Positions 22,030 to 25,460 of a stretch of 64,000 nucleotides of DNA are shown here, piece after piece. Below the pieces are notes generated by a model. The model searched no databases and was not told the DNA's origin. It was given only the letters and a program-made list of their open reading frames with translations. Position 1 is the first letter of the stretch. Every line of letters starts with the position of its first letter. Position numbers and translations under genes: made by a program. This DNA comes from Eledone cirrhosa (Eukaryota): positions 80,166,001 through 80,230,000 of the forward strand of contig OZ024744.1 of the NCBI GenBank assembly GCA_964016885.1. Direction: 5' to 3'.

Positions 22030-22512
22030 AAAGTTTTATTTAAATTGTTGGGTTACAACGAGTAAATATTTATAACTGATATAAAAGCACTCAACAAGTA
22101 TTTGGAGTATATTTACGATATTAAATAAATGGAAACAATATTTATAAAACCATATGTATTTCACTATATATATTTCAGGGATATCATATTAAAAATATGG
22201 TATGCCTTCATCAGACAAAATACAATATAAACAGTCTTATAAATAGATAGATTTGACATACCTTACACTTCAACTTCCATTTAAAAAGTTGATTTTAAAA
22301 AGTTGATTTTAAAAAGTTGGTTTGGTACCAAATCAACTTTTTAAATGGAAGTTGAAGTGTAAGGTATGTCAAATCTATCTATTTATAAGACTGTTTATAT
22401 TGTATTTTGTCTGATGAAGGCATACCATATTTTTAATATGATATCCCTGAAATATATATATAGTGAAATAAATATGGTTTTATAAATATAGTTTCCATTT
22501 ATTTAATATCGT
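22030..22512. mobile_element. Family D fold-back module with HHRs at 22159-22220 (minus) and 22405-22468 (plus)
   Basis: Inverted arms of ~190 bp; ttttgt CTGATGA AGG..CCT GAAA TATATATA T A gtgaaa. Confidence 0.8.
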
Positions 22513-22574
22513 ATATATAAATATATATATATATATATAAATATATATATAAATATATATATAAATATAAATAT

Positions 22575-22605
<31 letters not shown>

Positions 22606-22758
22606 AATATATATATATAAAAATGTATATATATATATAAATATATATATATAAAAATGTATATATATAAAAATGTATATATATATAAATATATATATAT
22701 ATATAAATATATATATATAAAAATGTATATATATATAAATATATATATATATATAAAT

Positions 22759-22789
<31 letters not shown>

Positions 22790-22800
22790 AATATAAATAT

Positions 22801-22925
<125 letters not shown>

Positions 22926-22982
22926 TATATATATAAATATATATATAAATATATATATATATAAATATATATATATATAAAT

Positions 22983-23013
<31 letters not shown>

Positions 23014-23035
23014 AATATATTATATATATATAAAT

Positions 23036-23066
<31 letters not shown>

Positions 23067-23090
23067 AATATATTATATATATATAAATAT

Positions 23091-23121
<31 letters not shown>

Positions 23122-23227
23122 AATATATATATAAATATAAATATATTATATATATAAATATATATATATATATAAATATATATATAAATATAAATATATA
23201 TATAAATATAAATATAAATATATATAT

Positions 23228-23304
<77 letters not shown>

Positions 23305-23481
23305 AATATATATAAATATATATATATAAATATATATAAATATATATATATAAATATATATAAATATATATATATATATATAAATATATATAAATATATA
23401 TAAATATATATAAATATATATAAATATATATATATATAAATATATATAAATATATATATATATAAATATATATAAATATAT

Positions 23482-23526
<45 letters not shown>

Positions 23527-23559
23527 TATATATATGTATATATAAATATATATATATAA

Positions 23560-24650
23560 ACACTTCGGCAGCATGCAGAATCCGATCAAATATATCGTCA
23601 ACCGCACGTAATTAGTAGTAAAATTAAACTTAGAAGAAATGCGCACATACCGTAATTATATCTCTACCATGGTTTCTTCCTTGTTTAGGACATCCAAATA
23701 ATATGGATTTGCCTTGAGTCAGGAATCATCAGGAGATGATTGCTAGATTTGATTATGTATATGGTTAATTATGCTGATTAGAAGAAGAAATAGTATATAT
23801 TTTAATATCTGATTGATTCTATAGACATGATTTATGATATAATGCTCTGATTTTTTTTATTTTAATTTATTAATTCTTCATTGAGCTTAAAAGTGAACAG
23901 TTGCAACACATATATGTATCTTTGATTTAATTTAATTTAATTTTATGTATGTGATAACCTATATATTTAATAATCTCCCTATCGGTTGAGATTAAATTTG
24001 GCGATATATGGCTGCGCTTTCTAGCAGCATGCCTACCCGCCGTAAGCAACCAATCACACGCTTTCTCTCTGGCTGGTACACAGCTACATAGCGATCTTAG
24101 CCATTTTTTTATCTAAATTTGGCGCGGTCGGTCTGAGAAATTAAATGTCTATTTCTGAGTTTGTCTCCTGATGATTCCTGACTCAAGGCAAATCCATATT
24201 ATTTGGATGTCCTAAACAAAGAAGAAACCATGGTAGAGATATAATTACGGTATGTGCGCATTTCTTCTAAGTTTAATTTTACTACTAATTACGTGCGGTT
24301 GACAATATATTTGATCGGATTCTGCATGCTGCCGAAGTGTTTGATAAATAGTGGAACGGAGCTACCGCGAACTAGCTGCGATCAATTATTTGTCGGAGAT
24401 TTCCCCGTTAGAAAATTTATTCTTAAAGCTTGCTAGATTTGATTATGTATATGGTTAATTATGCTGATTAGAAGAAGAAATAGTATATATTTTAATATCT
24501 GATTGATTCTATAGACATGATTTATGATATAATGCTGATTTTTTTATTTTAATTTATTAATTCTTCATTGAGCTTAAAAGTGAACAGTTGCAACACATAT
24601 ATGTATCTTTGATTTAATTTAATTTAATTTTATGTATGTGATAACCTATA
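23560..24650 (+). mobile_element. Retrozyme-like unit (690-bp period) with an inverted 5' arm
   Basis: 23740-23963 repeats at 24430-24650; 23560-23737 is the inverse of 24163-24342. Confidence 0.75.
24163..24240 (+). ncRNA. Type I hammerhead ribozyme (inverted copy at 23660-23737)
   Basis: gtctc CTGATGA ttc..ATCCA tattatt TGGAT..gaa GAAA CCATGG T A gagat. Confidence 0.8.
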
Positions 24651-24663
24651 TATATATATAAAT

Positions 24664-24694
<31 letters not shown>

Positions 24695-24725
24695 AATATA
24701 TATATATATACATATATATATATAA

Positions 24726-24779
<54 letters not shown>

Positions 24780-24806
24780 GTATAAATATATATATATATA
24801 TATGTA

Positions 24807-24870
<64 letters not shown>

Positions 24871-24919
24871 TATATATATATAAATATATATATATATAAA
24901 TATTTATATATATATATAA

Positions 24920-25034
<115 letters not shown>

Positions 25035-25035
25035 A

Positions 25036-25068
<33 letters not shown>

Positions 25069-25079
25069 AATATATATAA

Positions 25080-25112
<33 letters not shown>

Positions 25113-25113
25113 A

Positions 25114-25168
<55 letters not shown>

Positions 25169-25169
25169 A

Positions 25170-25200
<31 letters not shown>

Positions 25201-25267
25201 AATATATATATAAATATATATATATAAATATATATAAATATATATATATAAATATATATAAATATAT

Positions 25268-25338
<71 letters not shown>

Positions 25339-25460
25339 TAAATAATAACAATAGTAAGCCCGACGTCAATGTTAACTCTAGGCTAGATTCCGTAAATTTA
25401 AATACGACGTCAAACGTAACTTTGTCGAATGTTCATAATACCAATCTAAATCAGGAAACT

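What the first reader, a model, noticed from the sequence alone, without database searches (positions are those of the whole stretch)
23560..24650. 690-nt HHR unit with both a direct repeat and an inverted arm
Seen: an inverted ~180-bp arm containing the HHR, then a ~220-bp tail, then a full unit. The full unit has a CpG-richer segment with CCAAT at ~24050, the HHR, and the same tail again. The copies are nearly identical, so the insertion is young. Inference: this is the Penelope tandem-plus-inverted pseudo-LTR layout without any ORF, i.e. a possibly self-transcribed non-autonomous element.
Basis: partly seen in the sequence, partly recalled or inferred. Interest (0 to 1): 0.72.

Follow-up and report, generated by a model that had tools for sequence, protein, structure and literature searches.

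The report
Penelope-inserted hammerhead retrozyme, damaged copy
This is one slightly damaged copy of an abundant, protein-free 690-base repeat with a predicted self-cutting RNA fold, and its copies carry the same insertion marks as Penelope-type jumping genes, which likely lend it their enzyme.

Summary
The layout is real: a 178-nt inverted arm, a 221-nt truncated unit and a full 687-nt unit, about 99% alike, inside (TA)n. The hammerhead fold covaries across 33 relatives.

The unit is a genome-wide family (832 exact hits to one 27-mer, older relatives, a 30-kb array). None of 99 insertions sampled by their 3' end runs into a Penelope-like (PLE) ORF. Copies follow PLE grammar: 43 of 54 head-to-head copies have one end at unit base 571 and one 85-120 nt further on, as an ORF-bearing PLE family here does.

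Arms pass the cleavage site freely (58 of 63) and 21 of 99 exceed one unit, so the template is a circle or uncleaved multimer; which is undecided. Self-transcription is untested, the CCAAT box is polymorphic, and the partner enzyme was not found. This copy is atypical: its sense ribozyme has a rare stem II mismatch and no cis partner, and its inverted arm lacks 190 nt.

Verdict: a new retrozyme / non-autonomous PLE family of a known kind. The scan already noted the same footprint in other families of this genome.

The parts
22510..23558 (.). (TA)n / (TATATAAA)n target tract, left flank
23559..23736 (-). Inverted arm = unit bases 204-381. Its outer end stops 190 nt short of the family's usual end at unit base 571
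   Evidence: 1 of 54 head-to-head copies ends here
23659..23738 (-). Hammerhead copy with intact helix II; predicted cut after 23665. A junction hairpin is predicted to sequester the core
23737..23739 (.). Three inserted bases at the inversion point, completing a 7-bp fold-back
   Evidence: sequence, fold
23740..23960 (+). 5'-truncated preceding unit (unit bases 470-690), the pseudo-LTR-like direct repeat
23961..24647 (+). Full ORF-less monomer
   Evidence: circular fold z -3.2 against 25 shuffles
24000..24130 (+). Candidate Pol II promoter segment, 50% GC: CCAATC 24050, GCCATTTT 24100, TTTGGCGCG 24118 (NF-Y-, YY1- and E2F-like; factor names recalled). Function untested
   Evidence: similar motifs upstream of the hammerhead in ORF-bearing PLEs
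24162..24241 (+). Type I hammerhead: helix I 24162-67/24236-41, core 24168-74, long three-part helix II 24175-24223 (rare G>A at 24220 breaks a pair), GAAA 24224-27, palindromic helix III, predicted cut after 24235
24525..24531 (+). Primary fixed 3' end of the family (unit base 571), inferred first RT start site
   Evidence: 123 exact end-plus-TA hits
24532..24647 (+). Optional tail between the two fixed ends, inferred second RT start site at its end
   Evidence: PMC11167929 for the meaning of tails
24648..25348 (.). (TA)n target tract, right flank

Best explanation
The 690-nt unit is an ORF-less, high-copy repeat with a covarying hammerhead fold that is likely copied in trans by a (TA)n-targeting Penelope-like RT-endonuclease, probably from an RNA in which the cleavage site is continuous (a ligated circle slightly more likely than an uncleaved multimer). 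Shown here: high copy number, no ORF, TA targets, two fixed outer ends, head-to-head arms, read-through of the cleavage site, more-than-unit arms, hammerhead covariation. Inferred: (1) a Pol II promoter in unit bases 40-170 makes RNA that runs into the next unit; (2) two hammerheads pair through the palindromic helix III and cut out a monomer, which is ligated (my odds 0.5 circle, 0.4 uncleaved multimer, 0.1 other); (3) the PLE enzyme nicks both strands of a TA tract and starts reverse transcription inside the RNA, at base 571 on one strand and at the tail end on the other; (4) one primed strand gives a partial tandem, two give head-to-head arms. The window copy is such a two-armed product whose left arm was primed at, or later trimmed to, base 381. 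It is probably inactive.
For: Copy number: 832 exact hits to a 27-mer, control 0. Ends: 43 of 54 head-to-head insertions have one short and one tail end, and 29 of 39 direct ones end at 571; in the 3'-anchored sample 33 of 37 inverted partners end with the tail. An ORF-bearing PLE family in this genome (905-aa frame; RT and GIY-YIG by Pfam on a copy) shows the same two ends with a 46-nt tail. In vitro a PLE protein cleaves and extends both strands and starts at two internal sites that delimit the tail (PMC11167929). Template continuity: 58 of 63 arms pass the cleavage site and 21 of 99 exceed one unit. Duplicated parts of one insertion differ by 1.3-1.8% against a 5.4-5.9% median to other loci, and share 34 rare variants. 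Ribozyme: 89% of cells paired against 83% shuffled (0 of 500), 30 two-sided changes against 11.6; U3-A8 core swap in an older relative family. Circular folds z -2.2 to -4.9 with the hammerhead not formed in the two where it was displayed.
Against: No ORF-bearing PLE with sequence homology to the unit was found among 40 GIY-YIG loci and 30 loci of one further family; six or so families were seen, of an unknown total. No cleavage or transcription data. Covariation shuffles ignore relatedness, so 0 of 500 is not a probability. Pair 10.1-11.1 is not the usual G-C and is unpaired in 13 of 33 rows. The monomer hammerhead is 3 kcal/mol less stable than the free fold. Two of four folding controls also reached z near -2 to -2.5. 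147 rare variants are not shared within insertions, and within-insertion divergence is about equal to that to the nearest other locus. In PMC11167929 hammerhead cleavage was dispensable and unprocessed RNA was the main substrate, which favours the multimer over the circle.
Confidence: 0.8

Rival explanations
1. Same enzyme, but the template is an uncleaved linear transcript of a dimer, an array or a read-through of a partial tandem; the ribozyme acts later or rarely.
For: PMC11167929: cleavage not needed, unprocessed RNA dominant, no reads ending at the site. A 30-kb array and trimers exist as possible sources. Several 5' ends recur at identical positions (474, 479), as inherited ends would. 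The stop rate rises about threefold in long arms, as with a finite template.
Against: Long-term covariation of the ribozyme in an ORF-less lineage implies that cleavage matters. No pile-up of 5' ends at a plausible start site in the previous unit. The rise in stop rate fits a change point near one unit length (675) as well as 525, and displacement of the enzyme's own cDNA on a circle would give that.
Confidence: 0.4
2. The copies are 5'-truncated ends (solo pseudo-LTRs) of an autonomous PLE not yet found.
For: PLE insertions are often 5'-truncated, and opposite-strand hammerhead pairs 100-700 bp apart were read this way in PMC4209133. The PLE census here is incomplete.
Against: Upstream of unit base 1 lies the previous unit's tail or TA, never coding sequence: 0 of 99; the six PLE protein hits in those flanks are on the opposite strand. 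The one locus with a PLE ORF upstream on the same strand (L052) has that PLE's own terminal repeat and a TA tract in between. Head-to-tail arrays of pure units exist.
Confidence: 0.07
3. A DNA-level satellite or palindrome spread by recombination in TA tracts, with no RNA step.
For: The C1 array has a six-unit higher-order repeat (lag-6 divergence 0.031 against about 0.05), so DNA-level amplification does occur after insertion.
Against: Dispersed copies on many chromosomes, fixed 3' ends with variable 5' ends, PLE tail rule and ribozyme covariation.
Confidence: 0.04
4. The window's inverted layout is an assembly artefact beside long TA tracts.
For: No contig of runs X1-X3 spans the stretch (uninformative). 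The left end is atypical.
Against: The arms differ by 2 substitutions and carry a unique 3-base junction; 54 other-or-same loci show head-to-head arms.
Confidence: 0.03

Closest known systems
Metazoan non-LTR retrozymes (Cervera and de la Pena 2020, PMC7229834, passages read; Li, Clavereau and Pollet, bioRxiv 10.64898/2026.07.22.740005, parts 1-3 of 5 read)
   Same: ORF-less tandem units under 45% GC with a type I hammerhead, palindromic helix III of the dimer type, monomers to long arrays; length inside the preprint's 51-972 bp range; proposed to be non-autonomous PLE derivatives.
   Different: Longer than the 170-400 nt units assayed in 2020. Helix II is about 49 nt in three parts. The head-to-head arms with a fixed tail and TA targeting are not described in the parts I read ('inverted' occurs 0 times in the 2020 main text). 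No homology to a PLE pseudo-LTR found here, unlike 24 of 57 Xenopus families that matched known elements. Circular RNA not tested.
Endonuclease-bearing Penelope-like elements (Craig et al. 2021, PMC8557442, passages; Arkhipova et al. 2013, PMC3846280, passages; Frangieh et al. 2024, PMC11167929, parts 1-2 of 4)
   Same: Partial tandem plus inverted 5'-truncated copy, tail at one end only, (TA)n targets, hammerhead in the repeat, promoter-like motifs upstream of it.
   Different: No RT or GIY-YIG ORF. Tail 85-120 nt against 30-40 nt in those papers and about 45-60 nt in the PLE families seen here.
Non-autonomous Chlamys elements such as MRC1 (PMC8557442, passage)
   Same: Non-autonomous PLEs with pseudo-LTRs and multicopy head-to-tail insertions.
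   Different: Those share 3' sequence with autonomous families and most Chlamys lack a canonical hammerhead; here a hammerhead is conserved and no partner is recognisable.

Membership tests
Non-LTR retrozyme | Type I hammerhead in the unit | tested here: met
   core motifs in 98 of 117 units; covariation; Rfam gives no hit
Non-LTR retrozyme | No protein coding | tested here: met
Non-LTR retrozyme | Tandem units, at least two consecutive complete hammerheads (family level) | tested here: met
   dimers, trimers and an array with 29 of 38 units intact
Non-LTR retrozyme | Two consecutive complete hammerheads at this locus ('active' criterion of the 2026 preprint) | tested here: not met
   one sense hammerhead, with a helix II mismatch
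Non-LTR retrozyme | Self-cleavage of the RNA | not testable with these tools
   genomic proxy is neutral: 6 loci start at the site against 4 at a control site
Non-LTR retrozyme | Expressed as linear and circular RNA | not testable with these tools
   no RNA run available to lay
Non-autonomous PLE | Partial tandem, inverted copy, tail at one end | tested here: met
   43 of 54; 33 of 37
Non-autonomous PLE | Insertion into (TA)n like local PLEs | tested here: met
Non-autonomous PLE | Sequence shared with an autonomous partner's terminal repeat | tested here: inconclusive
   profile search of 70 PLE loci found only nested copies; census incomplete
Autonomous PLE | RT plus GIY-YIG ORF between the repeats | tested here: not met
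   0 of 99; none in the window
snRNA-promoter satellite (newt satellite 2 type; recalled, not read) | snRNA core promoter upstream of the ribozyme | tested here: not met
   matrix from 9 U1/U2 promoters of this genome scores the units below 0, against 10-35 for 8 of 9 left-out promoters

The most novel reading that the evidence does not exclude
A self-sufficient RNA parasite: a 690-nt unit with its own Pol II promoter and dimer-gated ribozyme makes a circle on which a PLE enzyme primes at two fixed sites from both ends of a TA break. The lineage has kept this up through several waves, swapping even the C3-G8 core pair, with no recognisable sequence left in common with its helper.
Probability: 0.3. 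Interest if true: 0.68.

Novelty: new member of a known kind. Interest (0 to 1): 0.42.

Why it matters
Retrozymes are proposed to borrow PLE enzymes, but in the papers read the support is co-occurrence and terminal-repeat similarity. Here the insertion footprint itself (two fixed starts, one-sided tail, head-to-head arms) matches PLE biochemistry. The family gives a small, defined substrate for an open question: does a PLE reverse transcriptase use a cleaved and ligated circle or unprocessed RNA, and what is the hammerhead for? The window copy itself is an ordinary, damaged member.

Tried and rejected
Rfam scans: no hammerhead model matched.

Partner search: GIY-YIG family search and 40 loci, one further family with 30 loci, distant endonuclease hits in all fetched loci (part of that output and was cut from view), and the most diverged relative as query. 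No homologous ORF-bearing element. Short look-alikes in the tail (AAGTGAA, AACCT) were judged chance because the first is not kept across subfamilies.

snRNA-type promoter: core absent; a weak likeness to the distal element at unit base 9 had p 0.04-0.28.

Pile-up of 5' ends at the cleavage site: 2 exact and 1 near-exact of 63 looked suggestive, but the genome-wide count was 6 loci against 4 at a control site with the same upstream bases. Not supported.

Change point of the stop rate at one unit length: likelihood equal at 525 and 675. Undecided.

The 30-kb array as a single rolling-circle product: rejected as it stands, because it has a six-unit higher-order repeat.

No RNA holder listed. Contigs of X1-X3 did not span the locus.

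One search fetched an unrelated paper through a wrongly recalled id.

Full report
OBSERVATION. The window holds, between two (TA)n tracts, an inverted arm at 23559-23736, three extra bases, a truncated unit at 23740-23960 and a full unit at 23961-24647. The arm matches 24164-24341 at 176 of 178 bases and the truncated unit matches 24430-24647 at 218 of 221. There is no coding frame and no PLE protein match anywhere in the window. Unit coordinates below count from 23961.

RIBOZYME. Rfam has no matching model, but the type I core is plain: helix I, CTGATGA, a 49-nt three-part helix II, GAAA, a two-pair helix III closed by a palindromic tetraloop, and GTA ending at 24235. On 33 relatives that I chose for diversity from 94 distinct ones, 89% of cells pair (83% shuffled, 0 of 500; slid controls 26-43%), with 30 two-sided changes against 11.6. 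The tool warns that relatedness inflates this. An older relative family swaps C3-G8 for U3-A8 in many copies, a variant described for PLE hammerheads (PMC4209133, parts 1-2 of 4 read). That paper states that such a helix III works poorly in a monomer and well in a dimer. Against activity: pair 10.1-11.1 is unpaired in 13 of 33 rows, and the hammerhead fold is about 3 kcal/mol above the free fold. In the window the sense copy has G>A at 24220, which abolishes the proximal helix II in the constrained fold; the antisense copy is intact but a junction hairpin is predicted to bury its core.

FAMILY. The genome is 3.0 Gb; that it is a cephalopod is my inference from size and repeat content, also said in earlier notes. 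A 27-mer across the cleavage site has 832 exact hits, control 0. Relatives run from 98% to about 68% identity, with still older families beyond. They occur as monomers, dimers, trimers and a 30-kb array. Of 94 insertions not cut by a locus edge (2 dropped, duplicates of one place removed), 54 are head-to-head; 43 of these have one outer end at unit base 571 and the other at 640-690. Of 39 direct copies 29 end at 571; the 9 that end with the tail all came from a query that included the tail. Those samples were biased to hold the ribozyme, so I drew a second one by the 3' end alone: the 100 listed of 123 hits, 99 after removing one segmental duplicate. It gave 62 direct and 37 inverted copies, 33 of the 37 with the tail. 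None continues into a PLE ORF within the 1.5-3.5 kb fetched; six flanks hold PLE fragments, all on the other strand.

PLE FOOTPRINT. PLEs are abundant here. An ORF-bearing family shows the same grammar: TA targets, a short end or a 46-nt tail, and one of each in four head-to-head loci, with a fifth only half classified. Craig et al. describe partial tandems, an inverted copy and a tail at one end (PMC8557442, passages). Frangieh et al. show in vitro that a PLE protein nicks and extends both strands and starts at two internal RNA sites, the tail being the sequence between them (PMC11167929, parts 1-2 of 4). The unit's two fixed ends fit this directly. I found no autonomous partner by sequence in 70 PLE loci; the census is incomplete.

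TEMPLATE. Of 63 arms that reach the cleavage site 58 pass it, and 21 of 99 arms are longer than one unit. Genome-wide, 6 loci begin at the site next to TA against 4 at a control site. A linear self-cleaved monomer is therefore not the usual template. Duplicated parts of one insertion differ by 1.3-1.8%, against a 5.4-5.9% median to other loci and about 2% to the nearest one; 34 rare variants are shared and 147 are not. This fits one source but does not separate a circle from an uncleaved multimer. For the circle: stable circular folds with the ribozyme off (z -2.2 to -4.9, though two of four controls reach -2.0 and -2.5), dimer-gated helix III, long conservation of the ribozyme, and the proposal in PMC4209133. 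For the multimer: cleavage was dispensable in PMC11167929, arrays exist, and some 5' ends recur. The stop rate rises about threefold in long arms, with the change point unresolved.

PROMOTER. Unit bases 40-170 are 50% GC and among the best conserved. They hold CCAATC, GCCATTTT and TTGGCG motifs (factor names recalled). Three PLE families here have CCAATC 120-175 nt upstream of their hammerhead, as the unit does at about 118 nt; others do not. The background rate is 14% per 250 nt in my loci, which include the elements themselves. The box is CTAAT in 37 of 117 units. An snRNA-type core is absent. Self-transcription is plausible and untested.

THIS COPY. Its right end is the tail, so its left arm should end at 571; it ends at 381, alone among 54. 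The missing 190 nt are not elsewhere in the window. Mispriming and later deletion both remain open. With one damaged sense ribozyme it fails the 'active' criterion of the 2026 preprint.

NOVELTY. Retrozymes and their proposed PLE origin are in print (PMC7229834, passages; bioRxiv 10.64898/2026.07.22.740005, parts 1-3 of 5), as are non-autonomous PLEs (PMC8557442). Searches listed no paper on this family or on head-to-head, tailed retrozyme insertions; I read no supplements, and those of PMC7229834 or Repbase may list it. The scan's notes report the same footprint for 310-, 422-, 467- and 520-600-nt families in this genome; none matched this unit by sequence. I had the two-end rule before reading them. 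Two leads from them were tested in part: editing scars were not seen and the only start signal I could test, the snRNA core, was absent. Verdict: new member of a known kind, interest 0.42.

Noticed in passing
window 22030-22510: A second, unrelated head-to-head repeat in the same TA tract, with a CTGATGA...GAAA core at about 22412 and an 80-nt extension on one arm only; relatives in at least 15 fetched loci. Probably another small retrozyme family.
   Followed up: partly
L131-L134 (G000:C1:92.986-93.016 Mb): Array of about 45 units of a related subfamily with an inverted first arm, the usual two ends and a six-unit higher-order repeat.
   Followed up: yes
L260-L284 and L257: Older ORF-less relatives (81-89% among copies) with a U3-A8 catalytic core or a longer palindromic helix III.
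   Followed up: partly
L052, L054, L065, L070: ORF-bearing PLE families whose hammerheads use the U3-A8 core and a CCGG palindrome, with CCAAT, TGGCGC and TATAAA motifs 70-250 nt upstream. One family reads GCAA in place of GAAA.
   Followed up: partly
L251 (G000:C5:12.58 Mb), L221-L250: Very abundant young PLE family (905-aa frame, 95-97% protein identity over 149 other scored copies) with a minimal hammerhead and a 46-nt tail.
   Followed up: partly
L020, L025, L135, L144, L189: A further PLE family with GCGCATGCGC and AAAATGGCG motifs upstream of a minimal hammerhead and a tail of about 60 nt; it often shares TA tracts with the unit.
   Followed up: no
L285-L327: U1 and U2 genes share AATTA at about -90, TCAGT at -57, a TATA-like box at -30 and ACCTCCCTT near -255.
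   Followed up: partly
family-wide: Rare variants shared within an insertion are T>C in 10 of 34 against 18 of 147 unshared (p 0.018, uncorrected for about 14 classes). Unexplained, possibly chance.
   Followed up: no
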